Shown: positions 41,632 through 55,025 of the stretch, one piece after another
Numbering within the stretch: the stretch's first letter is position 1
Layout: every line of letters starts with the position of its first letter
Source of the DNA: an uncultured virus (IMG/VR IMGVR_UViG_3300042448_001291)
Taxonomy: Duplodnaviria; Heunggongvirae; Uroviricota; Caudoviricetes
IMG/VR virus record: IMGVR_UViG_3300042448_001291
Direction: 5' to 3' (one strand)
Length of the DNA stretch: 64,000 bases
Program-made: the position numbers and the translations under genes
Notes under the pieces: generated by a model
The model's input: the letters and a program-made list of their open reading frames with translations, nothing else
Told to the model about the DNA's origin: nothing
Database searches by the model: none

Positions 41632-41647
41632 AATATAGGCGCCAAAC

Positions 41648-41671
41648 AAAAAACCCATCCGAAGATGGGTT
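41648..41671 (-). terminator. Terminator downstream of tmRNA
   Basis: AACCCATC-TTCG-GATGGGTT followed by a T-run on the minus strand. Confidence 0.8.
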
Positions 41672-41675
41672 AAAG

Positions 41676-42067
41676 TGGAGATGACGGGACTCGAACCCGT
41701 GTCTTTCCTGTTCAACAATAAATGACTACACGTTTATTACAACATTGTTTCTCAATGTTCCGAAATATCAGGTTTGATGTATGTGAGAAACCTACCTGCA
41801 AACAACTTGGTCTCAGAGTTATTTTAAGAGGGCTCTGACCTGTGACCCTCATAACGGACTTCTGTTCCCAGGTTATATGTCCACCGACCCGAGGGTGGCA
41901 CCCAACTTAGTTAGGCAGCCACTTTAGAAGTTGCAAGTAAACCTGCAATTTCCATGTTGTTGTAAACGTTGCCGTTTGAATTTTTTCACCGTAGATTAAA
42001 GTCATAGATGAATTCTGACTACGTGCCATTTATCCCTGATACCTGAAATCAATTCCGTGGCATCCCC
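41676..42067 (-). ncRNA. ssrA: tmRNA; predicted tag (A)GNVYNNMEIAGLLATSKVAA
   Basis: 5' GGGGATG...GGAATTGA; 3' T-arm ACGGGTTCGAGTCCCGT and CATCTCCA with G3:U70; tag frame 41911-41973 ends in AA-stop. Confidence 0.92.
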
Positions 42068-42140
42068 AGATATGTAAATATAGATAAAAAAAGTGAGAAA
42101 TTCTCACTTTTGTTACCCCGCCTATCATTTTTAATTAAAA

Positions 42141-42320
42141 TTACTTACTCTTCTTTGCTGCTGGTTTCTTTGCTGCTGGTTTCTTTGCTTTTTTAGGTTT
42201 TTTAACTTCTTCTACCTTTGCAACTTCAACCGCTTCTTGTACTAAAACAACAGGACTTTCCTGTACCGGAGTACTTGGAGCAAATAATGACTTAACTAGA
42301 TCAATTAACTTCTTTAACAT
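42141..42320 (-). CDS. 59-aa protein with histone-H1-like KKPAAKK tail (not in ORF track)
   Basis: MLKKLIDLVKSLF...KKPKKAKKPAAKKPAAKKSK; upstream TATTTAT. Confidence 0.7.
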   Translation of the reverse strand: MLKKLIDLVKSLFAPSTPVQESPVVLVQEAVEVAKVEEVKKPKKAKKPAAKKPAAKKSK

Positions 42321-42363
42321 AATTTTGTAGATTTATATATAAATATCTTTTGATTTGCGAAAA

Positions 42364-43047
42364 TCAGCGGTCTATCCTTAGGGGTAATAAATGCCCATAT
42401 TTCGCCTCAAAAAACAGTTTATTCTTTTCCCATTGTTTATTAACCATACCAACAGATTTGTGGATCACAAGTACCTTGGTGGTTACCCCCACCTTGACTC
42501 CACTTACATAATTCGATACACAGAACGGAATATCATAAAAGTGAAAACCAGGAAATTCCTCGTCAAACCCGTTCGCAATTCGCGATTTGCAAACTGCGAA
42601 AAATAAGCCATCAACCGCAATAACTTCTTTCATATTTTCACCGTAGGTCCCTGAATAGTTATTTCTATGTACCTTACCTTGATGTTCATGTTTAACTTGA
42701 CCAAACATTGATGCTCTATCTGTCCACCACATACCATTAATTAAATTATCAGTGCCAGCAATTCCAATTATTCCAAATTCTGGATTTTTCTCAAATAATT
42801 TAATAATCTTATTAGTGACATTTGTGGTCTCAATAATAAGATCGTCGTGCATAAAAACAACAATATCATTACTACTTTCATTTAATCCTCTATTGTATAA
42901 TTGAGGTAATGAAAATTCGCCATTATTCTCATAAATTATAATCTCAGTTTTTGGATGAGAAAACATCTTACTAACATGTTTAAGGTAGTCATCATCAATT
43001 TTACGTGTTGATATGACAACACTTATAGGGTAATTATTCTTCGACAT
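42364..43047 (-). CDS. GT2-like glycosyltransferase
   Basis: YNRGLNES, VFMHDDL, VDGLFFA, FHFYD. Confidence 0.85.
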   Translation of the reverse strand: MSKNNYPISVVISTRKIDDDYLKHVSKMFSHPKTEIIIYENNGEFSLPQLYNRGLNESSNDIVVFMHDDLIIETTNVTNKIIKLFEKNPEFGIIGIAGTDNLINGMWWTDRASMFGQVKHEHQGKVHRNNYSGTYGENMKEVIAVDGLFFAVCKSRIANGFDEEFPGFHFYDIPFCVSNYVSGVKVGVTTKVLVIHKSVGMVNKQWEKNKLFFEAKYGHLLPLRIDR

Positions 43048-43783
43048 AGGTTGCTATAATTTGTCCGTCGTATTCGTTTAGATCAACAACGATTGGTTTA
43101 TTTGATGGGTTATAACCTGCGGTACAAGTTGACGCATTAACATATAATGTATCATCTAAATAAGTTACACCGTATCCTTCATGTATATGTCCAAATACGT
43201 TTAATGCTGGTTTAATACGTTCCATGTGAAACCTAAGTGATTCACAGCCAACATTTCTATTGGGTTGTCTAAAATTATTAACTAAATCTAAGACCCCATT
43301 TGGGGGGCTGTGTGTAATTAATACGTCAGTATCGTCAGGGACCATACTCCACTTTTTATCTAGTTCATCACCTAATCTTGGTAAGTTAAATGCCCAATCG
43401 TAGAACCAAGGTTGCCAAGGACTACCGTAAAATTTGATAGGTCTTGAGAACTCAGGAGTTTCAATTGTAATAAAACTATCCTCCAAATAAGTCACGTCAG
43501 ATTGTGATAAATTCTCCGGTGACATTAAATGATTTAACCAATCATAATCTCCTTTATGATGTGGTAAATTAACTCTTTCAAAACAATGGTCGTGATTACC
43601 GGCGATGAATATTTTAGAATCAAATCCTTTTATGTTTTGAAACCAATGTATAAATTCAGTAACGTCTCGTTCACCACCTCTATTCGATATATCACCAGCA
43701 TGTACTAATACGTCACCATCAGGTATTTGGTGCATCATATTGTTTTGCAAACTATGTGTATCTGATATACAAACTATTCTCAT
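43034..43783 (-). CDS. Calcineurin-like metallophosphoesterase
   Basis: ISDTH, HAGD, IAGNHD, LITHSPP, FGHIHE. Confidence 0.92.
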   Translation of the reverse strand: MRIVCISDTHSLQNNMMHQIPDGDVLVHAGDISNRGGERDVTEFIHWFQNIKGFDSKIFIAGNHDHCFERVNLPHHKGDYDWLNHLMSPENLSQSDVTYLEDSFITIETPEFSRPIKFYGSPWQPWFYDWAFNLPRLGDELDKKWSMVPDDTDVLITHSPPNGVLDLVNNFRQPNRNVGCESLRFHMERIKPALNVFGHIHEGYGVTYLDDTLYVNASTCTAGYNPSNKPIVVDLNEYDGQIIATYVEE

Positions 43784-43815
43784 AGTATTAATATAAACAT
43801 TTTATTTTAAAAGGC

Positions 43816-43844
43816 AAAAAAAAAGTCAGAATTTCTTCTGACTT
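43816..43844 (-). terminator. Terminator closing the large ncRNA
   Basis: AAGTCAGAA-GAAA-TTCTGACTT followed by a long T-run. Confidence 0.8.
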
Positions 43845-43854
43845 AATTTTTTTG

Positions 43855-44730
43855 TATAGGCCGTATGGTTTTACATACATTCACCACCACTTTGTTTTTC
43901 TAAACAAAGAAAATAAAACTCTGAGAATACAAGTTTTAACGAAACTCTTTAAAAGGATTATTTGATTCCCCTTATTTCCACTAACTTTTGATTAGTAAGT
44001 TTCAGCCACGGTCAATTAGATTAACCAATCCTTTCGTAACACCCTACTCTATTAGTACTCATCACTCATCAAATCTGCCGACCTGATTCAACCTTGCGGG
44101 TTTAGAGAACTTTCTTAAAAATCATATTGGGCTTGAGACCCTTTATGGCTGTGAACCCCTCACAACTATGTAGTGACCTATCGGACATTACGCACGAACA
44201 CTTTTTCTTTTTATGTATGATTTTTATACCAAAATAAAAATTTAGTTTCCGAATTATTCAGGTAGCGGTTCGTGACCAGCCAAATCACCTTTTGAGCGAC
44301 TCGATACTAAACTACCCGATATGACATCCCTGTCATCATATTTTTGGTTTCCTTCGAGATTAAACCCTTGGTAGGATTTATTCAAGGACACTAACAGCAC
44401 CACCTGTTTTTTGTCATACCTTCCGTCTTACGACGCTACGGTTTTAAGACCACCATTGTATTGAATTACGCAATGATATAGTCGGATAACTATACTTCTT
44501 ACATGAACTCTATGGATTATTCTTATTGATGTTCCCATCTCAACCAAACAACTCGGATTGCTTGGTCATCCAACCCTTTCGCTACGGAGTTACCCTCACT
44601 ACTTCAGGTTAAATGATATTCCACTTGTCTACTCGAGATCCATTTCTGAATCCGCAACTTATCCTAACCAAGGACTTGTCACTTTATCCCACTTTCATGG
44701 TTTATTTTGTTGACCATAGACGGCCAATAT
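43855..44730 (-). ncRNA. Large (~870 nt) structured ncRNA, GOLLD/ROOL-class candidate
   Basis: No convincing ORF; TATATTTG promoter at 44767-44774; terminator below; 5' GGCCGT(CT)ATGGT pairs with 3' ACCATACGGCC; many hairpins. Confidence 0.7.
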
Positions 44731-44809
44731 TTTTAAATCAAAGATCTATTATTGTTACTTGTTATGCAAATATAGAGAAAAGAATTGAAATAAAAAACTT
44801 TTTTTAAAA

Positions 44810-45004
44810 TTATTTCTTTTTATTTTTTTTAACTTCATAACTTCCACCCATATCATGGGTGACTTCTGGGGCCGCTTCAACTTTTTTAACACCTCTCCAC
44901 TCTTCTTTGGATACGTATTTCCATTGATTACCAACCATTTGGTTCGCTTGTTTATCATCAACTCTGATAATGCTACCCGTTTTTACATTTTTTAAACATT
45001 TCAT
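44810..45004 (-). CDS. Small basic hypothetical protein
   Basis: 64-aa ORF. Confidence 0.65.
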   Translation of the reverse strand: MKCLKNVKTGSIIRVDDKQANQMVGNQWKYVSKEEWRGVKKVEAAPEVTHDMGGSYEVKKNKKK

Positions 45005-45033
45005 TTTACAAATTTTAACTAATATAAATAAAA

Positions 45034-45495
45034 TTAAATTCTAACTAAATGGTTTGCTGCATAAGTTGTTAAAGCACCTAAATGTTTATATCTAACTTTA
45101 TACCCCATACCTTCTACTAAACCAACTGCTTGTCTTAAAACACTATTTGATTTAAATTTAGGATCTGGATTCAAATCAATATCAATCCATTTAGGTTTTG
45201 GTAAACCATTTTCTTTTAGATATTCCGCCATTTCAATAGATTTCCAAACCTCATTTAACAACCTAGATGGTGTGTTATATTCCATACCTACTGATTCGCG
45301 AGTGCACAATACATGGGCACCTTTACCTTGTGTGTACAACGCAATAACAACTCCGTAAATTGTTTTTTTGTTACCATAACATTGTGAATCAGACCCTATG
45401 AGAATCTCAACGTTCTCTCTAGTCGAGATGTATTCTCTAACATACTCAATTAAATTTGGAACCGGTGTTCCATAGAGAGTTCTAAATTGTTTCAT
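45034..45495 (-). CDS. RNase H-like YkuK/DUF458 family protein
   Basis: ILIGSDSQ, RLLNEVWKSIE, IDIDLN, AANH. Confidence 0.8.
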   Translation of the reverse strand: MKQFRTLYGTPVPNLIEYVREYISTRENVEILIGSDSQCYGNKKTIYGVVIALYTQGKGAHVLCTRESVGMEYNTPSRLLNEVWKSIEMAEYLKENGLPKPKWIDIDLNPDPKFKSNSVLRQAVGLVEGMGYKVRYKHLGALTTYAANHLVRI

Positions 45496-45522
45496 TTTAT
45501 TTCATTTAATATAGTTATTTTG

Positions 45523-45612
45523 CGGAAAGTGAGGGACTTGAACCCTCGCGCCAGTTTGACCCGACCTAGCAGTTTAGCAAACTGCCCCCTTCACCAACTT
45601 GGGTAACTTTCC
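45523..45612 (-). tRNA. tRNA-Ser(GCT), array 1
   Basis: Cloverleaf; GCAGT-TTGCTAA-ACTGC; long variable arm. Confidence 0.95.
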
Positions 45613-45613
45613 G

Positions 45614-45844
45614 TTAGAAGATTTGTTTTTCTTGTCTTCTTTTTGCTTCTTCGGCCTCCTTTACCATTCTTATCCAAGTAATAGAGACATCAATGGGCGC
45701 TAAAACCCAAGCCATCATTAATACCATAATAGAATCTAGTTCTGGTGATGTTCCGTAATCAACACCTCTGTTTCTATACTTTTTATTTAATTGATAGAAA
45801 CAATAAACAACACATAATACATAATACCCAATTAGTATACTCAT
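45614..45844 (-). CDS. Small membrane protein within tRNA array 1
   Basis: MSILIGYYVLCVV..., two hydrophobic segments. Confidence 0.65.
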   Translation of the reverse strand: MSILIGYYVLCVVYCFYQLNKKYRNRGVDYGTSPELDSIMVLMMAWVLAPIDVSITWIRMVKEAEEAKRRQEKQIF

Positions 45845-45856
45845 AATTAAAAATTT

Positions 45857-45931
45857 TGGTTGTCCCCCAGGGAATCGAACCCCACTTATCTGGACCAAAA
45901 CCAGATGTAATAACCGATATACGAGAGGACA
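45857..45931 (-). tRNA. tRNA-Gln(TTG), array 1
   Basis: TCTGG-TTTTGGT-CCAGA; encoded CCA. Confidence 0.95.
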
Positions 45932-45992
45932 AAATAATCATCATTGAGAATGTAGATTTTCACTAACTCGATTTAGCGGTCTCTTTGATGAT

Positions 45993-46067
45993 TGGAGCAG
46001 ATGAAAGGAATCGAACCTTCGTCTCCAACTTGGAAGGATGGAGTAATAACCATTATACGACATCTGC
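45993..46067 (-). tRNA. tRNA-Gly(TCC), array 1
   Basis: CCATC-CTTCCAA-GTTGG; encoded CCA. Confidence 0.95.
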
Positions 46068-46124
46068 ATTTGGTGACTGAAAAACATCTATCTTTCTTTT
46101 TGGTATTGTCACCGGATACCCATG

Positions 46125-46196
46125 AGCCCCCGCCCGGAATCGAACCGAGTTATCATGATTACAAGTCATGCGCATCGCCTGCAATGCTTAAAGGGC
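46125..46196 (-). tRNA. tRNA-Thr(TGT), array 1
   Basis: CATGA-CTTGTAA-TCATG. Confidence 0.92.
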
Positions 46197-46201
46197 TGTT
46201 G

Positions 46202-46273
46202 AGCAGTAGAGAGGAATCGAACCTCCGTCTCCACCTTGGCAAGGTGGAGTAATGACCATTATACGACTACTGC
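46202..46273 (-). tRNA. tRNA-Gly(GCC), array 1
   Basis: CCACC-TTGCCAA-GGTGG. Confidence 0.95.
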
Positions 46274-46277
46274 ATTG

Positions 46278-46350
46278 TAGAAGATGAGGGAATTGAACCC
46301 CCGACTTTTTGCATGTAAGACAAACACTCTACCAACTGAGTTAATCTTCT
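46278..46350 (-). tRNA. tRNA-Val(TAC), array 1
   Basis: TTTGT-CTTACAT-GCAAA. Confidence 0.95.
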
Positions 46351-46355
46351 ATTTG

Positions 46356-46429
46356 TGGACCAGGATGGACTCGAACCATCGACTTTCACATTATGAGTGT
46401 GCTACTCTAACCAACTGAGTTACAAGTCC
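46356..46429 (-). tRNA. tRNA-Ile2(CAT) (lysidine type; elongator Met not excluded), array 1
   Basis: CACA-CTCATAA-TGTG; G1:C72, A73; not initiator-like; two other CAT tRNAs are in array 2. Confidence 0.8.
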
Positions 46430-46432
46430 AGG

Positions 46433-46538
46433 TGCCGGAGGAAGGATTGATTACCTACACGGTGTCCATTTCGGATACACCACCCACCTAGGAAGGGAAC
46501 GTCTCAAGGTTGTACACACCTCTTTTCGCCACTCCGGC
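46433..46538 (-). ncRNA. Aberrant tRNA-Leu-like RNA (expanded D region, degenerate T loop)
   Basis: Perfect acceptor stem GCCGGAG/CTCCGGC-A; extra AGGT/ACCT hairpin; long variable arm; no TTC in the T loop. Confidence 0.55.
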
Positions 46539-46543
46539 ATGTG

Positions 46544-46700
46544 TGAGTTACGGGGGATTCGAACCCAAGAATATAATTTGTAATCTACTACGTACTCGAT
46601 TAACAACATTCTTTTTACCATAGTCATCTCCGCGGCCACAGAGTTTATAGACACCTTCAATTACTAGGAAGGTCCGGATCGCCACTCCGGAAGGTAACTC
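46544..46700 (-). ncRNA. 157-nt tRNA-like RNA with ~85-nt insertion
   Basis: Acceptor GAGTTAC/GTAACTC-A; GGGTTCGAATCCC T loop; TCCGGA/TCCGGA and CCTTC/GAAGG arms. Confidence 0.55.
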
Positions 46701-46706
46701 ATTTTG

Positions 46707-46787
46707 TGGGAGTAAGTGGACTCGAACCACTGAACTCGATGAGGGGGGATTTACAGTCCCCTGCAATTGCCGCTATGCGATACTCCC
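46707..46787 (-). tRNA. tRNA-Tyr(GTA), array 1
   Basis: GGGGA-CTGTAAA-TCCCC. Confidence 0.95.
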
Positions 46788-46833
46788 ATTCTGTACATTC
46801 CTAACCTGACGTATACATACAAACCGTTTTCCG

Positions 46834-46914
46834 TGACCAAGGAGAGATTCGAACTCTCACGTCTTTCGACATTGGTTCCTAAGACCAACGTGTCTACCAT
46901 TCCACCACTCGGCC
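46834..46914 (-). tRNA. tRNA-Leu(TAG), array 1
   Basis: TTGGT-CTTAGGA-ACCAA; long variable arm. Confidence 0.95.
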
Positions 46915-46919
46915 ATTTG

Positions 46920-46991
46920 CGTCCCTACCTGGATTCGAACCAAGAATAATTGATTAACAGTCAAACGTGATCACCATTTCACCATAGAGAC
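46920..46991 (-). tRNA. tRNA-Asn(GTT), array 1
   Basis: TTGA-CTGTTAA-TCAA. Confidence 0.92.
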
Positions 46992-46998
46992 ATTTTTG

Positions 46999-47072
46999 TC
47001 GAGATAGCAGGATTCGAACCTACGGCCTCTTGCTCCCAAAGCAAGCGCGATACCGGACTACGCTATATCTCG
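46999..47072 (-). tRNA. tRNA-Pro(TGG), array 1
   Basis: CTTGC-TTTGGGA-GCAAG. Confidence 0.95.
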
Positions 47073-47079
47073 ATGATTG

Positions 47080-47151
47080 TAGACCCACGTGGACTCGAAC
47101 CACGAATATCTCATTAGAAGTGAGAAGTTATATCCCTTTAACTATGGATCC
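47080..47151 (-). tRNA. tRNA-Arg(TCT), array 1
   Basis: TCTCA-CTTCTAA-TGAGA. Confidence 0.95.
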
Positions 47152-47159
47152 AATTGCTG

Positions 47160-47246
47160 TGCCCCAGGCGGGAATCGAACCCGCACGAACATTTACGGTT
47201 CACGGGATTTTAAGTCCCGCGCGTCTACCAGTTCCGCCACCAGGGC
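47160..47246 (-). tRNA. tRNA-Leu(TAA), first gene of array 1
   Basis: CGGGA-CTTAAAA-TCCCG; long variable arm. Confidence 0.95.
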
Positions 47247-47302
47247 AATTTTACACAATATGTCAAAGATCTAACTAATATAGGAAATAAACCCAAGAAA
47301 AC

Positions 47303-47335
47303 AAAAAACCCGAACTTTTTTTAAGGTTCGGGTTT
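47303..47335 (-). terminator. Attenuator terminator upstream of tRNA array 1
   Basis: AAACCCGAAC-CTTAAAAAAA-GTTCGGGTTT followed by TTTGTTTT. Confidence 0.85.
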
Positions 47336-47365
47336 CGATATTTTGATGTTTTAAATCCTAATTTC

Positions 47366-47464
47366 TCACAACTCCGAACTTGATACACATAACTGCACAC
47401 CATACCCGTTACCATTGTTACCCGGTCTACTCGTAAGCGTCAATATGTTATTTAAATTCTTCAT
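47366..47464 (-). CDS. 32-aa leader peptide of tRNA array 1: MKNLNNILTLTSRPGNNGNGYGVQLCVSSSEL
   Basis: ATG..TGA between promoter and terminator; codons 3-25 all match array-1 anticodons. Confidence 0.85.
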   Translation of the reverse strand: MKNLNNILTLTSRPGNNGNGYGVQLCVSSSEL

Positions 47465-47482
47465 CGTTATTATAAGTATATG

Positions 47483-47513
47483 CAAATATATAAAAGTTTT
47501 TTGAAAAAACAAC
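47483..47513 (-). promoter_or_regulatory. Bacteroidetes-type sigma promoter for leader 1
   Basis: GTTG-19 nt-TATATTTG (consensus TTTG-19..21-TAnnTTTG). Confidence 0.7.
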
Positions 47514-47578
47514 TATATTGAAAAAATTTGTTTAATAATTAAGAAATATTCTTTATATTGCATTATAAAATCTTAATT

Positions 47579-48100
47579 ATGAATCTAAGAGAAGCCACTG
47601 CGGAATTACATAGTAAAGCAGAAAAAATGGAATTTAACCAAAAAATGTTTAGAGGTGAATTGAGTAAGAAAGAGTACTTACATTACCTTATCCAACAATC
47701 AGTAATATTTCAATGTATTGAGGAACACACATTACCACAAATAACACCTGAATTAAAAAGATTAAAAAATGTCTTTGAGGATATTCAAGAGTTACAAAAA
47801 GATGTAAGAGATAAATTGCCAGGATTAGAATCAACAAAAAAATATGGTATCTATTTGGAATCATTAAAAGGAGAAAAAGTTCTTGCTCATGTTTATTTAA
47901 ATTACTTAGCGTTGGTTTTTGGTGGCCAAATGATGAAATCTAAAGTTCCTGGTAATGGTAAAATGTATATGTTTGAGAATGTTCAAGAAGTAATTCAAAA
48001 TGTGAGAGGATTTCAAACTGATGACATGGCTGAAGAAGTAAATAAAGGTTTTAATTTTATAATTGATATATTAGATGAATTACAAAAAAACGCTGGATAG
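47579..48100 (+). CDS. Heme oxygenase (HemO/Ho1-like)
   Basis: LREATAELHSKAE proximal His; LAHVYLNYLALVFGGQMMK distal helix. Confidence 0.88.
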   Translation: MNLREATAELHSKAEKMEFNQKMFRGELSKKEYLHYLIQQSVIFQCIEEHTLPQITPELKRLKNVFEDIQELQKDVRDKLPGLESTKKYGIYLESLKGEKVLAHVYLNYLALVFGGQMMKSKVPGNGKMYMFENVQEVIQNVRGFQTDDMAEEVNKGFNFIIDILDELQKNAG

Positions 48101-48710
48101 TATTGCAAATCGAATACAAGATTTAATAACAATTACCGCTAACGGTGTTGAAATTCCTACTGAAGATTTTGGTTGGAAAAATAAAAGATATGTTGGTAGT
48201 AAGTTTCGTATCGCACATATAGAAAGATACTCCGATAAAAATCTAGAAGTATTACACTTTACGTGTTTTCCAGATTCAACATATCAACACCCAATTTTTG
48301 GTTTTGATATTATTACAACAGATAAGAAACCACTTGCAGCATTTTTAGATTGGTCTCCGGTTGATAATGTTTTAAGTTATATATGTCTTGAAGAATTTAA
48401 AAAACTATACCCATTACCTGAATGGGCTAAAATTATTTTTTCACAAACACCAATAGCAATTATTCCAGATGATTCTGAAATGGAAAAATTAGGAGAAGTT
48501 GTAATTCAAAGTTTTGAAGATTATTTAACTATTTTAAATAATTCGACCCCATCAATTAAAAGATCGAATTACATTATTGCAGCACAAAATAGATATTGTG
48601 AACAACAGCAAAAAAACGAAAGGACATATAATGTGTTAAAAGCAAAACTTGGCGAAGAAAAGGCCAAGTTCTTTATGTCAGAAATTTTATTCCCAAGAAT
48701 CGCAAATTAA
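48075..48710 (+). CDS. Ferredoxin-dependent bilin reductase (PcyA/PcyX-like)
   Basis: FRIAHIE, EVLHFTCFP, PIFGFDI, FLDWSP, LPEWA..IFS, QNRYCEQQQKNERT...LFP. Confidence 0.85.
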   Translation: MNYKKTLDSIANRIQDLITITANGVEIPTEDFGWKNKRYVGSKFRIAHIERYSDKNLEVLHFTCFPDSTYQHPIFGFDIITTDKKPLAAFLDWSPVDNVLSYICLEEFKKLYPLPEWAKIIFSQTPIAIIPDDSEMEKLGEVVIQSFEDYLTILNNSTPSIKRSNYIIAAQNRYCEQQQKNERTYNVLKAKLGEEKAKFFMSEILFPRIAN

Positions 48711-48883
48711 AATCCTCTCCTTTTGTAAACACGGCTAGGTGCACGATACAAAATATTTGGTTGATATTTTCCTATCGTTGCTTTTCTTTTAAAATGATTA
48801 TGATATCTGTGATGATGTGGTTTAATTATTACACAGCCACTTAACGTAGCAATAATCAGTATAAAAAATATTATCTTTTTCAT
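48707..48883 (-). CDS. 58-aa His/Arg-rich lipoprotein (not in ORF track)
   Basis: MKKIIFFILIIATLSGC lipobox, then HHHRYHNH; upstream TATTTAT. Confidence 0.6.
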   Translation of the reverse strand: MKKIIFFILIIATLSGCVIIKPHHHRYHNHFKRKATIGKYQPNILYRAPSRVYKRRGF

Positions 48884-48899
48884 ACTAATAAATATCCAG

Positions 48900-48971
48900 T
48901 ACTCGGTACGGGATTCGAACCCGTGCTACGTCCGTGAAAGGGACGCGACCTAACCACTAGTCGAACCGAGC
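48900..48971 (-). tRNA. tRNA-Glu(TTC), array 2
   Basis: CGTCC-CTTTCAC-GGACG. Confidence 0.95.
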
Positions 48972-48976
48972 AAGTG

Positions 48977-49062
48977 CGGAGAGAGTAGGATTCGAACCCA
49001 CGGTACCTTTCAGTACTTCGGTTTTCAAGACCGACGCGATAGACCAACTCTGCCATCTCTCC
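48977..49062 (-). tRNA. tRNA-Ser(TGA), array 2
   Basis: TCGGT-CTTGAAA-ACCGA; long variable arm. Confidence 0.95.
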
Positions 49063-49064
49063 GT

Positions 49065-49250
49065 TGACACCTTCATTTATCCAACTCACAGGTGTCTTAG
49101 ATGTCCCCTTTCGGGTTAGGAATAATCATTTCGTCCTCACGAGGTCGGGGTGATGTCCCCTGACGTTCTCCCTATACGTCAATGTACGTTTCCATATGGT
49201 GGTCAAACCATTTCTTTTCATATTGGATATACTATTCAGTGACTAACCGA
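49065..49250 (-). ncRNA. Putative structured RNA between tRNA-Asp and tRNA-Ser
   Basis: Hairpins TGACGT/ACGTCA, GGGG/CCCC, CCT-CGTG-AGG, CCC-GAAA-GGG, GACACCT/AGGTGTC. Confidence 0.5.
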
Positions 49251-49256
49251 ATCGTG

Positions 49257-49330
49257 CGGACTGTACGGGACTCGAACCCGTGAACTCTACCGTGACAGGG
49301 TAGCATGATAACCAACTTCACCAACAATCC
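49257..49330 (-). tRNA. tRNA-Asp(GTC), array 2
   Basis: CTACC-CTGTCAC-GGTAG. Confidence 0.95.
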
Positions 49331-49414
49331 GTGTTTGATACTAACTCACCTTAAATTGCACCTACTGGTCATGCCATGGTTAACAAAGTCCTCGTTGAGT
49401 TAGATCAAAAAAGG

Positions 49415-49601
49415 TTACAGGTTTTTCGTACCCATTCGTACATCATAACAAATACATTTCTATATCTGTGGTTACATTTTCGTCATTGGGTTAATTACAC
49501 CCGACTTGTAGCAACTCTACTTTCACCGCTATGATACCGCGAATCAAGACGGGTGTTAAGATTTATAGACAGTGGGTTTCCACCACCGTCGTCACCTGTA
49601 A
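49415..49601 (-). ncRNA. Putative ~190-nt multibranch RNA
   Basis: Closing stem TTACAGGT/ACCTGTAA around arms GACGGTGG/CCACTGTC, ACACCCG/CGGGTGT, ACCCA/TGGGT. Confidence 0.55.
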
Positions 49602-49606
49602 TTTCT

Positions 49607-49726
49607 TTACTTTCTTCTACGCTGACGTAAAGCGCAGCCAGCAACAGATTTATATGCTTTTGTAGTTCTTTTACTTCTTAAAGCACTACTTGCTTTTCTT
49701 GCCACTCTTCTTGACGTTCTAGCCAT
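49607..49726 (-). CDS. 39-aa Arg/Lys-rich protein
   Basis: MARTSRRVARKASSALRSKRTTKAYKSVAGCALRQRRRK. Confidence 0.65.
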   Translation of the reverse strand: MARTSRRVARKASSALRSKRTTKAYKSVAGCALRQRRRK

Positions 49727-49741
49727 AGTTAAAAGTTTTTG

Positions 49742-49813
49742 TTGCGAGGGAAGGGATCGAACCTCCGACCTTTGGGTTATGAGCCCAACGAGCCACCGCT
49801 GCTCTACCTCGCG
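49742..49813 (-). tRNA. tRNA-fMet(CAT), array 2
   Basis: C1:A72 mismatch; TTGGG-CTCATAA-CCCAA with three G:C pairs. Confidence 0.95.
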
Positions 49814-49870
49814 ATGTTTTGCAAATATAGAAAATATTTTTAAAATAAAAAAATATTCCAAATATTTTTG

Positions 49871-49939
49871 TTGCGGGGCCAGGAATCGAACCTGAATATC
49901 TGGCTTATGAGACCAAACGGATTACCTAATCTCCCCACA
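49871..49939 (-). tRNA. tRNA-Met(CAT) with short D arm, array 2
   Basis: TTGGT-CTCATAA-GCCAG; acceptor TGTGGGG/CCCCGCA. Confidence 0.8.
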
Positions 49940-49940
49940 A

Positions 49941-50017
49941 TGGGGTGATCGACGGGATTCGAACCCGCTTTATTCTAGTGCCACAAACTAGTGCTCCACC
50001 GTACGAGCATCGATCAC
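49941..50017 (-). tRNA. tRNA-His(GTG), array 2
   Basis: CTAGT-TTGTGGC-ACTAG; C73 and encoded CCA. Confidence 0.92.
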
Positions 50018-50019
50018 AG

Positions 50020-50090
50020 AGTCACGTGCAGGAATCGAACCTGCGTAGAAGGTTTTGCAGACCTCCGCCTAACCACTCGGCCAACCTGAC
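50020..50090 (-). tRNA. tRNA-Cys(GCA), array 2
   Basis: GAGGT-CTGCAAA-ACCTT; U73. Confidence 0.95.
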
Positions 50091-50097
50091 TTATTTG

Positions 50098-50168
50098 AGG
50101 TCTCACAGGGATTCGAACCCCAATCATCTCGTCCGTAGCGAGACGTTTTTCCATTAAACTATGAAACC
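50098..50168 (-). tRNA. tRNA-Arg(ACG), array 2
   Basis: TCTCG-CTACGGA-CGAGA. Confidence 0.95.
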
Positions 50169-50172
50169 ATTT

Positions 50173-50592
50173 TTATAGGCAATTTTGCTTATATTTTTCC
50201 TCAGTACCAATTCCAATTGGGACAAACAACGCAAAACCATCGTCATCTTCAAAATGGTTACAAGTATCCTCAAATACATTTTGAAATTTTGTTCTCATAT
50301 AAACAAATTCCTTTCCATTCCATTTGGCCACTTGTGCGTTCCTGTGTTCACCAATATAATATTGACCCTCAACTAAATCTTTTTTAGGGATTGCACCTGC
50401 CTCAATTAATTTTGGGACATAATAATCCTTCCATTCCTGAATGTCTACTTTTGGTAAATCAGGTACGTCCCTTGGAGTATTAATTTTTGGGAGATTTTCC
50501 CAATACTCTTTTATTCTTTGTTTTCTTTCCTCTCTTATTTGGATAAGTTGTGCTTTCGCTTTTAACTTAAATCCTTCTACGTTGTTTTCCAT
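50173..50592 (-). CDS. Hypothetical protein within tRNA array 2
   Basis: 139-aa ORF. Confidence 0.75.
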   Translation of the reverse strand: MENNVEGFKLKAKAQLIQIREERKQRIKEYWENLPKINTPRDVPDLPKVDIQEWKDYYVPKLIEAGAIPKKDLVEGQYYIGEHRNAQVAKWNGKEFVYMRTKFQNVFEDTCNHFEDDDGFALFVPIGIGTEEKYKQNCL

Positions 50593-50632
50593 ATTTTACA
50601 AATTGTAAGTGTTTTACTTTACATATTATTAG

Positions 50633-50703
50633 CACGGGTAGAGAGATTCGAACTCCCATCGAGGGTTTTGGAGACCCGTATGCTGCCGTTGCACCATACC
50701 CGC
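50633..50703 (-). tRNA. tRNA-Trp(CCA), array 2
   Basis: GGGT-CTCCAAA-ACCC; G73. Confidence 0.95.
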
Positions 50704-50708
50704 GTGTG

Positions 50709-50782
50709 TGACCCCTTTAGGACTCGAACCTAAAACCCCTACATTAAAAGTGTAGTGCGCTAACCAATTGTGCCAAGAGATC
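50709..50782 (-). tRNA. tRNA-Lys(TTT), array 2
   Basis: CTACA-CTTTTAA-TGTAG. Confidence 0.95.
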
Positions 50783-50842
50783 ATACTAACATTTTTTTGC
50801 ACACTAACATAAATTATGTTATCGTACAAATTTTTGTTATTG

Positions 50843-50915
50843 TGGAACCTCGGAGAGTCGAACTCCATCCTCTGGATTTTCAGTCCAGCGTACGCACCGG
50901 CTATACAAAAGTTCC
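50843..50915 (-). tRNA. tRNA-Phe(GAA), array 2
   Basis: CTGGA-CTGAAAA-TCCAG. Confidence 0.95.
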
Positions 50916-50920
50916 TTCAG

Positions 50921-50993
50921 TTCTTAGGGGTAGATTCGAACTACCAACCTCCTCGGTATCAGCGAGGTACTCTCACCATTGAGTTACCTAAGA
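50921..50993 (-). tRNA. tRNA-Ile(GAT), array 2
   Basis: CCTCG-CTGATAC-CGAGG. Confidence 0.92.
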
Positions 50994-50998
50994 ATTTG

Positions 50999-51068
50999 TG
51001 GACACGTTGGGAATCGAACCCATTCACTCTGATTGCAAATCAGGTGGTCTGCCATTGACATCCGGCCC
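50999..51068 (-). tRNA. tRNA-Ala(TGC), first gene of array 2 (irregular acceptor stem)
   Basis: CTGA-TTTGCAA-TCAG; G3:U70. Confidence 0.8.
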
Positions 51069-51151
51069 ATTTATATTGTGCCAAAACTAACTTTTTTTAT
51101 GAGATTTGGCCACTTATAGAAAATCATAACCGGCCAAAACCCACATAAAAC

Positions 51152-51186
51152 AAAAAAACCTCGAGATTTTTAAGTCCCGAGGTTTT
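51152..51186 (-). terminator. Attenuator terminator upstream of tRNA array 2
   Basis: AAAACCTCGGGA-CTTAAAAA-TCTCGAGGTTTT followed by TTTGTTTT. Confidence 0.85.
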
Positions 51187-51209
51187 CTAATATTTTAAGT
51201 TAAACTAGT

Positions 51210-51308
51210 TTAACCAACATCAGTGTCATCGAGACATATGGACATAGAACGCTCATCCGCCCATTTTGAACAGATTGTAAACGACATTGTATGTTTTGTT
51301 TGTCTCAT
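51210..51308 (-). CDS. 32-aa leader peptide of tRNA array 2: MRQTKHTMSFTICSKWADERSMSICLDDTDVG
   Basis: ATG..TAA between promoter and terminator; 17 of codons 5-23 match array-2 anticodons. Confidence 0.85.
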   Translation of the reverse strand: MRQTKHTMSFTICSKWADERSMSICLDDTDVG

Positions 51309-51338
51309 TGAATTTTGTTTTGTTTTAATCTTCTTTTG

Positions 51339-51370
51339 CAAAGATAATAATAAATACTCTTAAAAACAAG
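51339..51370 (-). promoter_or_regulatory. Bacteroidetes-type promoter for leader 2 with embedded TATTTAT
   Basis: CTTG-20 nt-TATCTTTG; TATTTAT at 51350-51356. Confidence 0.7.
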
Positions 51371-51384
51371 AAAAGTTTAAAAAT

Positions 51385-52173
51385 TTATTTACCCCAGTGC
51401 TTTATTCTTAATTCATCCATATCAATTGGTTCACGTTTCATATGATTACCCCTTGAGAAATTTGCACCTTTTTTAAGATACCCACCCAAAAAGTTTCTTC
51501 GCATTCTATTTGAATTATTTGGTTCAGACCCATGAACGCAATGTGAGTGTAATAGCACAACCTGACCTTTTCGAAGATATCCCTCTACCTTACGAAAATC
51601 ATGACCTTCTGGCATCACACATGGTTTACCTCTTTCATTACTCCAAAATGCTGGGTTTGTTTTAGTTCTTTCTTCATCCACCTCAATTGGTAATACTGGA
51701 AGACGATGCGAACCCTCATAATTCCAAACTGCACCATTTTCAGGGTCATGATTATCTAACGCTAATGCGGTGTTAATAATCTCGTTATGACCACATTTGG
51801 TATAAAAGGCGTTCTGATGTTGGTCGCGACCTAATTGTCCTGGCGGTTTAAAATAACACCAACTTTGCATTCCCTGGATTTCACCCTCCATTAAAAATTC
51901 AACCGCTTCTAGAATTTTTGGGTGAGCGAATAATTTTTCTAATTTATCAGAAAGTTTATGTGGGTAAGCAAACGGATCCCATTCACACCATATTTTACCG
52001 TCTGGGGCTTCGGTCCCGGTTCTTTCGTTTCTTAACCTATCTAATTCATCGTTTATCTCATCACATTCTTCTTCAGTTAATAGTTCCAAGGTGGTAAACC
52101 CCCTATATCTCCAATCAAATGTTATTTGTTGAACCTCAAGGTCACTAAGATGTTTAAAATTACTCATATACAT
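51385..52173 (-). CDS. Phytanoyl-CoA dioxygenase (PhyH)-family 2OG-Fe(II) oxygenase
   Basis: FKPPG...HQNAFY, ALDNHDPENG...GSH, HGSEPNNSNRMRR. Confidence 0.85.
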   Translation of the reverse strand: MYMSNFKHLSDLEVQQITFDWRYRGFTTLELLTEEECDEINDELDRLRNERTGTEAPDGKIWCEWDPFAYPHKLSDKLEKLFAHPKILEAVEFLMEGEIQGMQSWCYFKPPGQLGRDQHQNAFYTKCGHNEIINTALALDNHDPENGAVWNYEGSHRLPVLPIEVDEERTKTNPAFWSNERGKPCVMPEGHDFRKVEGYLRKGQVVLLHSHCVHGSEPNNSNRMRRNFLGGYLKKGANFSRGNHMKREPIDMDELRIKHWGK

Positions 52174-52221
52174 GTTTTAATACCCTAAATTAAATAAAAA
52201 AATACTTATTGTAAAGAAAAC

Positions 52222-52587
52222 ATGGGCATAATTCCGATTACTTGGTATATAGAAACACCTATAGATTTTGAACACAAGCAGTATATCCTATTGTCTTATC
52301 TGCAACATGTTGACGCTAGTTTTATTGAAAAACGACTATCACCGCATCTTTTACATATGGAGAATATGCTCAAAGAACTCAATATGTTTGATGAAAGGTT
52401 CTTAACTATACTAAAGGATTTCGATAAAAATAGATACAAATTCTTCGAAAATCCAAAATTAGACGGAGAAGATAATGAGTTGGTTTATGAAATAAAAGAT
52501 GTTGTTGATTTTTCAATTCCTCAGGTAAAAACCAGATTAGCGCTGGGATATAAGATACTAGAAAGACACTCCCAAATTTTGTTCTAA
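52222..52587 (+). CDS. Hypothetical protein
   Basis: 121-aa ORF, PIDFEHKQYILL. Confidence 0.7.
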   Translation: MGIIPITWYIETPIDFEHKQYILLSYLQHVDASFIEKRLSPHLLHMENMLKELNMFDERFLTILKDFDKNRYKFFENPKLDGEDNELVYEIKDVVDFSIPQVKTRLALGYKILERHSQILF

Positions 52588-52725
52588 TAATTTTTCCGGC
52601 AATATATATGCCCTATTTGCCTTGCCCGATATTTATTTATGGCAAGAAGATACTAAATGTGTCTCTACTTTTAACATGGTGGAGCATATGTTGAGTTAAC
52701 CCTTCTTTATTTAAAACTTAATTTT

Positions 52726-53370
52726 ATGCAGAAAATCAAAACAATTTCAAGGAATCTAGGCGATTACATCGTTTATGCCTTTTTATCATTAGCAATACTA
52801 TTCGTTGTATTTGCACTTATCGCTCAACTATTCTTTGTATTTTTAGAGTTTAGCGGTAGAAGTGAAACTGCAGCACAAATAGCAAGAGAATTTACTTGGA
52901 AGTTTGATGGCACGTTTAAAAACGACCCTAACAACATATTCTATAATGCCGACGAACATGTGTACGTTGAAAGTGTTGTTAATAATGTTAAAATAGGAAA
53001 ATTAGCCGGAAATAGAAACTTAGAATTTGGGGTAAAAAACATACTGGAGGAGTTCTTACAAGATAAGGGGTATGATTTGACGCCAAGTGCACAAAATAAA
53101 TTAAAAGTAGAAATAGTGTATCTAGATGTTTTAACCACAAAAAAGAATGTGTCGGTATTTCATAAAAACGAAGAAGAAGTGGTTATAAGAATGAAAGGTG
53201 TCTTATATAAAGATGGTAAAAAAGAAAAGGAGATTATTGTTGAAGAAGGTTCTTCAGAAATATCAATGTCTAGTTTAATTGTTGATGAAGGTGGTCAATT
53301 TAACCAAACATCATTAAGTAACGCAATAAAGAAAACTTGCGATAAATTGGTTCAAAAATTATTTAATTAA
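52726..53370 (+). CDS. Membrane-anchored protein, possible CsgG/TolB-N-like fold
   Basis: N-terminal TM; FGVKNILEEFL; FNQTSLSNAIKK resembles FNQSTISIATKK in 59715. Confidence 0.55.
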   Translation: MQKIKTISRNLGDYIVYAFLSLAILFVVFALIAQLFFVFLEFSGRSETAAQIAREFTWKFDGTFKNDPNNIFYNADEHVYVESVVNNVKIGKLAGNRNLEFGVKNILEEFLQDKGYDLTPSAQNKLKVEIVYLDVLTTKKNVSVFHKNEEEVVIRMKGVLYKDGKKEKEIIVEEGSSEISMSSLIVDEGGQFNQTSLSNAIKKTCDKLVQKLFN

Positions 53371-53372
53371 AA

Positions 53373-55025
53373 ATGAAAAAATTAATTTTATTTTTAGGGG
53401 TATTTTTAACATCTCTTTCGGCTTTTAGTCAGTTAACCATTAGTCAATCGTTAACACCCACAACTGGTTTAAGGGTTGGAGATACTATTACTGTTCAGTA
53501 TAATTTAACAAAGGGACAAGTGATAAAAAACCCTAGATACCTTTGGTTTAGATACCAATATAATAATAAGGCCTTGAACTACTTGTCAACTACATTTAAC
53601 CAAGGGTCATCTTCTCAAACATTCTACACTGGATGGAGTAACTATAAGTTTACGCCAAATGGTGGCGCAAGTGATAATGATTTAAATGTTCAATATGGTT
53701 TATCTCCATGGAATTACACAGTCAACGCTGATTGGAATGTTGGACAATTAACTGTTCAAAGAGCCGACGCTTCAATTAGCGGTCTAATTGCCACACAAAA
53801 ATATATATTGAAAGACCAAAATACGTACAACAATATATTCAAATTAGATTTAGCAACGGGTACTGACACAACCGGTGCTAATGTTGGGACAATCTATGGT
53901 GGTGGTTGGTCTTCTTTAAGTAACGTAGTAGGTAACACATCCCAATTTAAAGTAAAAGTTTTATATCCACAAGGATATGCTATTTCTGACCATAATGTTC
54001 AGTTAATGAAATTAAAAACAGACGGTAGTGGTACTATCGATTGGAATCAACAACCAATTGCAATATTACCATTAGATGCAACTGGAGAGGCGTTATTTAC
54101 AACACAAGTTAAAGTTGGTGATAGTGTTGGTGTTTTTGTTTCGCCGGCTACACAAAAAAGTTGGATGAATAACATATTAACGGTATCAGACGCATACAAA
54201 GCGTTTTTAGGTCACTCGCAAACTAATATTGGAGGAACACCAAACTTTTTCACATATCCTAATTTAGAACAACAAATTGGTAATATATCTAAGAATGATG
54301 GTACTTTTAATGAGACGGATTCTTATTATTTATTTGCACATGTAATGGGTCAAGACGTGTCGTCAGTTGCATTCATACCATCAAACACAGCAACAACATT
54401 TAGATGGAATAGCGGACTGTTGAATCAGAATTGGTTGGATGGCGCACCGAAAAATAAAGTATTGATAGATACCCCAATTAAGGAGGTTTATGCCGTATAT
54501 GCTTGGGGTGGTGATTTAAACTGGTCACACTCATCAGACCCAGCGGTAATTGCAAGTAGAATAAGTGCTGGACAATATACAAACTCAATAAACTCTATTC
54601 AAACAAACTCAACTAAATCAACAAGTTCAATTTCAATGTCATATAAAACTGAAGCACTAGAAACTGCTAAATTGAGTGTGACATCAACATTAGAAGGTGG
54701 TAAGGTTATTCTATCAACCACATTAACTAAAGAAGGTTTGGCAGGTTTGGAAGTAATAATGAATTATGATACTACTAAATTATCTTTAGATAATGTAATA
54801 TTTGACGCTGGGAGCACAATTACTAACTTCTCTACACATGATAACGGTAGATTAACATTTGGATCAATGGACCAAATAAAGGTTGCTAGAATTAAAACTG
54901 GTGCACCTTATAAATTAATATTTACACCAAAAGTACCATTAACAAATACTTCGGGTTTATTCTTCTTTGTGTTGGCAGATGCTGTTGATGCTGGGGGTAA
55001 TAAAGTCAATTTAGTTGTTGAATAA
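53373..55025 (+). CDS. Secreted beta-rich protein with C-terminal cohesin-like domain
   Basis: Signal peptide ...SAFSQ; LTVSDAYKAF...GDLNWSHS shared with the next gene; LAGLEVIMNYD. Confidence 0.65.
   Translation: MKKLILFLGVFLTSLSAFSQLTISQSLTPTTGLRVGDTITVQYNLTKGQVIKNPRYLWFRYQYNNKALNYLSTTFNQGSSSQTFYTGWSNYKFTPNGGASDNDLNVQYGLSPWNYTVNADWNVGQLTVQRADASISGLIATQKYILKDQNTYNNIFKLDLATGTDTTGANVGTIYGGGWSSLSNVVGNTSQFKVKVLYPQGYAISDHNVQLMKLKTDGSGTIDWNQQPIAILPLDATGEALFTTQVKVGDSVGVFVSPATQKSWMNNILTVSDAYKAFLGHSQTNIGGTPNFFTYPNLEQQIGNISKNDGTFNETDSYYLFAHVMGQDVSSVAFIPSNTATTFRWNSGLLNQNWLDGAPKNKVLIDTPIKEVYAVYAWGGDLNWSHSSDPAVIASRISAGQYTNSINSIQTNSTKSTSSISMSYKTEALETAKLSVTSTLEGGKVILSTTLTKEGLAGLEVIMNYDTTKLSLDNVIFDAGSTITNFSTHDNGRLTFGSMDQIKVARIKTGAPYKLIFTPKVPLTNTSGLFFFVLADAVDAGGNKVNLVVE

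What the first reader, a model, noticed from the sequence alone, without database searches (positions are those of the whole stretch)
51152..51370. Leader 2: lists the complementary tRNA set of array 2
Codons 5-23 are AAA CAT ACA ATG TCG TTT ACA ATC TGT TCA AAA TGG GCG GAT GAG CGT TCT ATG TCC (K H T M S F T I C S K W A D E R S M S). Seventeen of 19 are read by array-2 tRNAs (Lys, His, Met, Ser-TGA, Phe, Ile-GAT, Cys, Trp, Ala, Asp, Glu, Arg-ACG), so every elongator species is represented, including rare W, C and H; the two exceptions are Thr ACA. GTCTCGA (51229-51235, codons 25-27) can pair with the terminator 5' arm TCGGGAC (7 bp including one G:U). Leader length (32 aa) and terminator loop (CTTAAAAA) match leader 1 while the peptide sequences are unrelated, suggesting one ancestral device re-coded for each array. 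Caveat: a TATATTTG element at 49822-49829 could separately drive the fMet/Asp/Ser/Glu end of the array.
Basis: partly seen in the sequence, partly recalled or inferred. Interest (0 to 1): 0.88.

Follow-up and report, generated by a model that had tools for sequence, protein, structure and literature searches.

The report
Re-codable attenuator gating phage tRNA genes
A giant phage places a tiny test gene, holding a codon for each tRNA encoded just downstream, in front of a switchable transcription stop; relatives keep the switch but rewrite the codons when their tRNA set changes, so the phage probably makes these tRNAs mainly when ribosomes run short of them.

Summary
Observation confirmed. A 32-codon ORF (51308-51210, minus) follows a Bacteroidota-type promoter and precedes an intrinsic terminator and 13 tRNA genes. 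Codons 5-23 are 17/19 array-2 type, and all 12 elongator species are listed (0 of 14,048 control windows do so). The 7-nt antiterminator pairing shows compensatory changes in 17 relatives and survives a change of reading frame. Codon bias is at isoacceptor level and stops where a ribosome would cover the antiterminator (259/286 vs 69/147). Best evidence: a search on the switch alone gave 48 loci. All 16 with Pro/Asn/Gln-headed arrays carry a re-coded P/N/Q sensor; all 23 Ala-headed ones carry the window's sensor. Best reading: a ribosome-coupled transcription attenuator that senses shortage of the tRNAs it controls; untested. Limits: Thr codons are unmatched here, 7 loci lack tRNAs but keep their codons, initiator tRNA has its own promoter, no expression data. 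The mechanism is classical (trp/whiB7-like); tRNA genes as target were not found in seven literature searches. This scan noted the same device earlier on other phage DNA.

The parts
51339..51346 (-). Promoter -7 element TATCTTTG; predicted start about 51334, giving a 26-nt A-rich 5' UTR
   Evidence: motif within 70 nt of 15 of 17 orthologous leaders vs 3 of 73 window ORFs; consensus and -12 to -5 position from PMC6847099 and PMC9723704. Function inferred.
51210..51308 (-). Leader ORF 2, 32 codons
   Evidence: conserved in length (29-34 aa) and position in 17 distinct leaders.
51246..51296 (-). Sensor zone, codons 5-21: at least one codon for each of the 12 elongator tRNA species of array 2, plus 2 Thr codons
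   Evidence: modelled stalls at codons 2-21 mostly leave the antiterminator free.
51229..51235 (-). Antiterminator strand GTCTCGA (codons 25-27)
   Evidence: kept in DNA although read in another frame in 8 of 17 relatives.
51187..51223 (-). Linker hairpin over the stop codon, nested inside the antiterminator helix; possible pause hairpin
   Evidence: fold. Linkers of relatives fold at -2 to -9 kcal/mol with different sequences. Role inferred.
51152..51186 (-). Intrinsic terminator: 5' arm 51175-51182, loop 51167-51174, 3' arm 51159-51166, U7 tract 51152-51158
   Evidence: -17.2 kcal/mol, z -4.2; 170 of 170 cells paired in 17 relatives.
48899..51068 (-). tRNA array 2: Ala-TGC, Ile-GAT, Phe, Lys-TTT, Trp, Arg-ACG, Cys, His, Met, initiator Met, Asp, Ser-TGA, Glu
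   Evidence: CAT tRNAs sorted into three sequence classes (labels inferred from recalled identity features).
49822..49829 (-). Internal promoter-like TATATTTG, 4 nt of leader before the initiator tRNA (49741-49813)
   Evidence: motif within 40 nt of 9 of 22 initiator-type genes vs 1 of 82 other CAT and 30 of 958 non-CAT tRNA genes.
47366..47464 (-). Leader ORF 1, sister device, MKNLNNILTLTSRPGNNGNGYGVQLCVSSSEL
   Evidence: codons 3-25 are 23 of 23 array-1 type.
47300..47335 (-). Terminator of leader 1
45522..47246 (-). tRNA array 1 (13 genes), including tRNA-Thr(TGT) at 46124-46196 that reads the two unmatched ACA codons

Best explanation
A ribosome-coupled transcription attenuator that gates a phage tRNA operon and monitors the tRNAs it encodes. 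Host RNA polymerase starts at the -7 promoter (inferred). A host ribosome translates the leader. If every listed codon is decoded quickly, the ribosome reaches codons 22-33 and covers the antiterminator strand and linker; the terminator forms and transcription stops near 51152 (inferred from geometry and folding). If one listed tRNA is scarce, cut or uncharged, the ribosome stalls at codons 5-21; GTCTCGA pairs with the terminator's 5' arm and transcription runs into the tRNA genes, whose products relieve the stall (inferred negative feedback). Shown: anatomy, exclusive folds, covariation, codon match and re-coding with array content. Not shown: transcription, translation, termination, the in vivo signal. 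Initiator tRNA, which an elongation stall cannot report, has its own promoter, so Asp, Ser and Glu behind it probably get basal expression too.
For: Coverage of 12 of 12 species. Own-array codons 259/286 in the sensor vs 69/147 in the tail for 17 leader-2 orthologues; 354/407 vs 52/135 for 18 leader-1 orthologues. Isoacceptor split: leader 2 Ser 37 TCN/0 AGY, Ile 29 ATY/1 ATA, Arg 17 CGN with all 10 AGA at codon 2; leader 1 Ile 30 ATA/3 ATT, Arg 20 AGA/0 CGN, Ser 16 AGT/9 TCN; genome background 663:356, 670:424, 92:423. Antiterminator: 90.7% of cells paired, 3 of 9 pairs with changes on both sides; slid controls 19-48%. Different arm/antiterminator sequence pairs recur at the same place in other leader families. 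Same switch with re-coded sensor: 139 of 163 codons fit the new Pro/Asn/Trp/Leu/Gln/Met/Thr/Asp/Ser/Glu set, 65 of 163 the window's set. Sensor-blind search: 16 of 16 Pro-headed and 23 of 23 Ala-headed arrays have the matching sensor type. L028 moves Glu and Asp to array 1 and both leaders follow; Val enters leader 2 in 5 of 5 loci with Val-TAC in array 2; 9 of 21 other-layout leaders hold all 20 amino acids before a merged array. Terminator abuts the first tRNA (14 nt or less) in 11 of 17. No RNA polymerase beta subunit in 2 of 2 near-complete relatives. Precedent: one Trp codon suffices in the whiB7 uORF (PMC10274678, passages).
Against: No expression data. Thr codons (3 in codons 4-11) are unmatched in the window and in 7 other orthologues lacking tRNA-Thr in array 2. 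7 of 48 loci (3 distinct leaders) start with Trp, lack Ala/Ile/Phe/Lys tRNAs at the array head, yet keep those codons. Leader 1 of L039 (6/22) and L030 (11/24) no longer fits its reduced array, and leader 1 keeps a Val codon in 4 of 4 loci where Val moved away. The equilibrium model lets the antiterminator re-form with the ribosome at the stop codon in 9 of 17 orthologues (P 0.65 or more) and dips at codons 14-15 in the window; it ignores sterics and kinetics and assumes a footprint. No conserved 1:2 hairpin. Relatives are not independent: about five separate re-coding events, not dozens. Mixed codons with few regulatory ones lower sensitivity in theory (PMC1183508, passages).
Confidence: 0.8

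Rival explanations
1. Same attenuator, but in practice a general translation-stress or timing switch (any slowdown, antibiotics, late-infection ribosome shortage); the codon list only biases it.
For: Without a ribosome the antiterminator is predicted in 13 of 17 orthologues (P 0.86 or more), so failed initiation also gives read-through. Merged-array leaders list all 20 amino acids. whiB7 works as a general sensor (PMC10274678). Mismatches are tolerated (Thr, L039, Trp-headed loci).
Against: A general sensor does not need two disjoint codon lists, isoacceptor choice, or re-coding when the tRNA set changes.
Confidence: 0.3
2. The signal is amino-acid starvation (uncharged tRNA) rather than loss of tRNA molecules.
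For: A ribosome cannot tell the two apart; classical attenuators sense charging, and isoacceptors lose charge selectively (PMC1183508). Leader-peptide attenuators are predicted before amino-acid operons in Flavobacterium (PMC9723704).
Against: The output is tRNA, which does not cure amino-acid shortage (inference). The list follows anticodons, not amino acids. One codon per species suits severe loss (inference).
Confidence: 0.2
3. The ORF makes a small peptide with its own function, the hairpin simply ends its transcript, and the tRNAs are driven by other promoters.
For: Peptide core FTICSKWADER is well conserved; C-terminal tails recur across families. Internal promoters exist before initiator tRNA and, for array 1, after terminator 1 in most relatives. 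A TAGTTTTG lies 21 nt before tRNA-Ala in the window.
Against: Synonymous codons follow the array; the core is wholly replaced when the array changes; the antiterminator is kept across frames; 11 of 17 orthologues leave no room for a promoter. TAGTTTTG has G at -10, which PMC6847099 finds virtually absent, and it is missing at that place in L006 and L026.
Confidence: 0.06
4. Chance ORF and codon match; nothing regulatory.
For: The 5-23 span was picked after the fact; whole-ORF enrichment is modest (p 0.019).
Against: All 48 switch-anchored loci carry an intact leader; covariation and re-coding as above.
Confidence: 0.01

Closest known systems
Leader-peptide transcription attenuators of amino-acid operons (trpL, hisL; multivalent thrL and ilvL recalled, not from a call)
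   Same: Short translated leader, exclusive 2:3 antiterminator and 3:4 terminator, stall gives read-through, basal level set by release at the stop codon (PMC1183508, passages).
   Different: Targets are tRNA genes of a phage, not enzymes; one codon per species for 12 species instead of runs for one to three amino acids; list follows anticodons; no conserved 1:2 hairpin found.
whiB7 uORF attenuator of mycobacteria (PMC10274678, passages)
   Same: uORF with many amino acids; composition sets what is sensed; a single codon suffices; loss of the start codon raises read-through.
   Different: Controls a transcription factor; uORF is alanine-enriched, not matched item by item to downstream products; no direct feedback on the sensed tRNA.
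Anabaena trn operon, a 26-gene tRNA L-array induced by translational stress (PMC8421152 passages; PMC10272220 listing)
   Same: A silent back-up tRNA array switched on when translation is impaired.
   Different: Controlled by a repressor (TrcR); 'attenuat' and 'leader' occur 0 times in PMC8421152; the response is not codon-specific.
T-box riboswitches
   Same: tRNA status decides termination.
   Different: They bind tRNA directly without a ribosome; no T-box Rfam match in 41000-54000.
Phage tRNAs as counter-defence against host tRNA nucleases, e.g. T5 tRNAs vs PARIS AriB (PMC12409363, passages)
   Same: Gives a plausible signal: loss of specific host tRNAs in infection.
   Different: No sensing or inducible control of phage tRNA genes appeared in the passages read; no such defence was tested for this phage's host.

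Membership tests
Ribosome-mediated (leader-peptide) transcription attenuator | Short ORF between promoter and regulated genes | tested here: met
   intact in 48 of 48 switch-anchored loci.
Ribosome-mediated (leader-peptide) transcription attenuator | Intrinsic terminator (hairpin plus U tract) before the first regulated gene | tested here: met
Ribosome-mediated (leader-peptide) transcription attenuator | Antiterminator exclusive with the terminator, inside ribosome reach | tested here: met
Ribosome-mediated (leader-peptide) transcription attenuator | Control codons tied to the downstream products and placed upstream of the antiterminator | tested here: met
   exceptions listed in the Against line.
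Ribosome-mediated (leader-peptide) transcription attenuator | 1:2 pause / anti-antiterminator hairpin | tested here: inconclusive
   Window folds start-codon region onto the antiterminator, but this is not conserved; the linker hairpin may serve as pause site.
Ribosome-mediated (leader-peptide) transcription attenuator | Translation-dependent termination in vivo, coupled transcription and translation | not testable with these tools
   No RNA holder listed; contigs cannot show ends.
Amino-acid biosynthetic operon attenuators (trpL/hisL type) | Tandem or clustered codons for the end-product amino acid | tested here: not met
   No runs; 14 different amino acids in codons 2-21.
Amino-acid biosynthetic operon attenuators (trpL/hisL type) | Downstream biosynthetic or synthetase genes | tested here: not met
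   Downstream are 13 tRNA genes and one unknown ORF.
T-box riboswitch | Stem I with specifier loop and T-box antiterminator bulge | tested here: not met
   No Rfam match at E up to 1 in 41000-54000.

The most novel reading that the evidence does not exclude
A modular 'tRNA census' switch: a fixed RNA chassis with a freely rewritable codon list lets the phage detect loss of any host tRNA species it can replace, for instance by anticodon-nuclease immunity, and turn on only the matching back-up array. Leader sequences would then be a readable record of which tRNAs become limiting in infection.
Probability: 0.45. Interest if true: 0.9.

Novelty: new variant of a known kind. Interest (0 to 1): 0.8.

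Why it matters
Why phages carry tRNA arrays is a long-standing question (codon bias versus replacing destroyed host tRNAs). A switch that turns the genes on when those same tRNAs fail would show they are an inducible reserve and makes the question testable with a 200-nt reporter and single-codon swaps. It would extend attenuation to tRNA genes with direct negative feedback, and offers a programmable sensor for shortage of chosen tRNA species.

Tried and rejected
No whole genome is held for the window. Expression: no RNA holder listed; three runs with small shares laid as contigs of relatives or other organisms show no ends or strand, so nothing is concluded. Two exact patterns found 0 matches in genome contigs; this excludes only near-identical copies. 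No close cultured relative by the neighbouring RNase H-like protein: 31 records, all under 60%. No PF01171 (TilS) match in 2 of 2 held relatives, 3 of 5 handles not held, so the Ile2 label rests on sequence class and ATA use. Sigma-70 scan at background, 36 vs 34.9. The random-subset control was set at 18 of 22 while 17 was observed; not used. Direction of the Thr move: the tree (56 rows) has Thr next to Asp in one outer clade and next to Gly in another, so 'ancestral in array 2' is not claimed. A conserved anti-antiterminator was sought and not found. RNAalifold hairpin over codons 12-17 has no change on both sides and may reflect codon conservation. Curation: 56 leaders were picked by hand (deduplicated by peptide); other-frame ORFs and five rows (L048 before Asp, L057, L058, L061 before Met, L080) were dropped; four starts were reset to the nearer ATG; five antiterminator positions were corrected and three set by analogy. 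In one search the units of L012, L013 and L044 ran into array 1 by error; cuts them correctly. mis-scored four rows, recounted.

Full report
Setting. The window looks like part of a jumbo phage. The neighbouring RNase H-like protein finds 80 loci in IMG/VR contigs of up to 334 kb. Two near-complete relatives encode a terminase, no RNA polymerase beta subunit and no TilS match (2 of 5 handles held). In one (G001) all 26 tRNA matches lie in one 5-kb stretch, so the two arrays are its whole set. Host signals point to Bacteroidota: a Shine-Dalgarno-like motif before 1 of 50 ORFs, A at -3 in 22 of 50, and TAnnTTTG elements, matching PMC6847099 (passages) and PMC9723704 (passages). The host is inferred, not shown. 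The region also holds a GOLLD RNA and a tmRNA.

Observation. The ORF, codons, terminator, 7-bp alternative pairing and internal TATATTTG are all present. tRNA-Ala(TGC) is missed by default ARAGORN but found by Rfam. Under my wobble rules arrays 1 and 2 read disjoint codon sets, 52.4% and 47.6% of 15,148 codons. Codons 5-23 are 17/19 array-2 type; with codons 2-4 included, 17/22 (p 0.004). The stronger statistic is coverage of all 12 elongator species: 0 of 14,048 real windows, 8 of 1,000,000 simulated.

Conservation of the switch. From I curated 56 distinct leaders: 17 of leader-2 type, 18 of leader-1 type, 21 of other layouts. Each ends about 23-35 nt before the G/C-rich 5' arm of a terminator. 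In the 17 leader-2 sequences the terminator is paired in 170 of 170 cells. The antiterminator helix is paired in 90.7% of 151 cells, with 3 of 9 pairs changed on both sides; slid controls give 19-48%. Relatedness inflates the shuffle control, so I rely on the pair types (C:G/U:A/U:G, G:C/A:U, A:U/G:C). A 2-nt deletion puts the antiterminator in another reading frame in 8 of 17 without changing it, so it is conserved as RNA. Other families use other arm and antiterminator sequences at the same place.

The codon list. Own-array codons make up 259/286 of the sensor and 69/147 of the tail in leader 2, and 354/407 vs 52/135 in leader 1. The bias ends one to three codons before the antiterminator, about where a stalled ribosome would begin to cover it. 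A masking model with an assumed footprint (-15 to +10 around the A site) gives antiterminator probability 0.94-1.0 for stalls at codons 2-13 and 16-21, 0.54 and 0.19 at 14-15, at most 0.001 at 22-32, 0.2 at the stop and 0.58 with no ribosome. The last unique array-2 codon is Arg20. Synonymous choice follows the anticodons in each array, which a functional peptide would not require.

Natural experiments. A search on the tail codons returned 17 loci: 4 window-like, 1 chance hit and 12 with the window's switch (82-88 of 93 bases identical in 11; one has an insertion) but sensors such as MRQLTNMTSFSNQLNWNEQPM, ahead of Pro, Asn, Trp, Leu-TAG, Gln, Met, Thr, Asp, Ser, Glu. In the DNA fetched (up to 10 kb each side) these phages lack Ala, Ile-GAT, Phe, Lys, Arg-ACG and Cys tRNAs; 139 of 163 sensor codons fit the new set, 65 the old. 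A sensor-blind search on linker plus terminator arm gave 48 metagenome loci (32 distinct ORFs). 16 Pro-headed arrays have 6-9 Pro/Asn/Gln/Leu codons and 0-3 window-specific ones; 23 Ala-headed have 0 and 7-10; 7 are Trp-headed and keep the window sensor despite lacking four tRNAs at the head; 2 have no downstream DNA. In L028 Glu and Asp moved to array 1 and the codons moved with them. Val appears in leader 2 in 5 of 5 loci with Val-TAC in array 2. Nine of 21 other-layout leaders contain all 20 amino acids before a merged array (chance 0.003 for 41 codons). These amount to about five independent events.

Exceptions. tRNA-Thr lies in array 2 in 9 of 17 orthologues, so the Thr codons are cognate there; the direction of the move is unresolved. 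L039 and L030 keep leaders that no longer fit. The first codons of both leaders are of the other array's type. The model does not by itself explain termination with the ribosome at the stop codon in 9 of 17 orthologues; steric exclusion and slow release would be needed (inference; PMC1183508 describes release at the stop as setting basal read-through). The internal promoter is real enough to matter: 9 of 22 initiator-type genes carry the motif against 31 of 1,040 others, and in several merged-array phages that gene stands 1.1-2 kb upstream of the leader. So control is likely tight for Ala to Met and partial for Asp, Ser and Glu.

Mechanism and rivals. The best reading is a ribosome-coupled attenuator with negative feedback on the tRNAs it encodes (0.8). 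General-stress and amino-acid-starvation readings share the hardware and differ in the signal; a peptide function or chance are unlikely.

Prior art. It works like trp/his and whiB7 attenuators and meets the testable features of ribosome-mediated attenuators. It is not a member of the biosynthetic-operon subclass or of T-boxes. Seven full-text searches (0 papers; 17: 30 of 104 listed; 30: 30 of 669; 33: 17 of 23; 46: 2 of 2; 51: 14 of 14; 68: 25 of 83) showed no title or abstract start describing attenuation of tRNA genes. The library lacks most subscription papers, so absence is not proven. I read passages only of PMC2965389 (0 hits for 'tRNA gene' or 'phage'), PMC1183508, PMC8421152, PMC6847099, PMC9723704, PMC10274678 and PMC12409363; no supplements were read, and candidate lists in the supplements of PMC2965389 or PMC9723704 could bear on prior predictions. 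This scan had noted the same kind of element in at least 27 other genomes and on close relatives; these are unchecked AI notes, consulted after my own, and not counted as support.

Verdict. Real and very probably functional; a new variant of a known mechanism with an apparently undescribed target and logic; interest 0.8.

Noticed in passing
window 47260-47271 (-) and relatives: G(A/T)TCTTTGACA between terminator 1 and tRNA-Leu in 17 of 18 leader-1 loci, 11 of 21 others, 0 of 17 leader-2 loci. Resembles the rRNA antitermination boxA (label recalled).
   Followed up: partly
window about 47275-47282 (-); L005, L006, L018-L021, L030, L035-L038: A second promoter-like TATATT(T/A)G lies downstream of terminator 1 in about 14 of 18 loci. 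In reduced phages (L016, L138, L140, L142, L144, L148) leader 1 is gone while terminator and this element remain before Leu-TAA, Arg-TCT and the CAT tRNA. Array 1 may have basal, unattenuated expression.
   Followed up: partly
leader tails, e.g. window 51210-51227, L001, L005, L050, L053, L076: C-terminal tails recur across unrelated leader families: DTDVG, EASGW, DINKG. DINKG in leader 2 of L001 and leader 1 of L026 differs at synonymous positions. Cassette exchange, RNA constraint or slow release at the stop are all possible.
   Followed up: partly
window ORFs of 150 aa or more: CGG, the only sense codon that no array tRNA reads under my rules, appears absent from 15,148 codons (one search lists no unread codon and the two fractions sum to 1).
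   Followed up: no
window 49607-49726 (-): 39-codon Arg/Lys/Ser/Ala-rich ORF (MARTSRRVARKASSALRSK...) right after the initiator tRNA; the 49331-49740 interval has blastn matches in 90 of 197 loci.
   Followed up: partly
window 46430-46705 (-): Two tRNA-like remnants between Tyr and the CAT tRNA; the distal one is conserved in 24 of 197 loci; folds are not better than shuffles.
   Followed up: partly
window 43918-44319 (-), 41673-42067 (-), 44320-44800: GOLLD RNA (304.8 bits) and tmRNA downstream of array 1; the stretch upstream of GOLLD, without long ORF or Rfam hit, is conserved in 54 of 197 loci.
   Followed up: partly
window 47558-48710 (+): Heme oxygenase and ferredoxin-dependent bilin reductase genes inserted between the two arrays on the opposite strand, in a phage with Bacteroidota-type signals.
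   Followed up: no
window 51069-51151 (-): 83-nt spacer with inverted repeats between terminator 2 and tRNA-Ala, shared by 13 of 197 loci; most orthologues have 14 nt or less.
   Followed up: partly
L048 4611-4694 and 6427-6546; L049 6020-6139: A different partition of tRNAs with different leaders; the Ser/Gln/Pro/Phe/Asn/Val/Ile/His unit matches 26 of 28 codons, the Leu/Arg/Cys unit only 9 of 19.
   Followed up: partly
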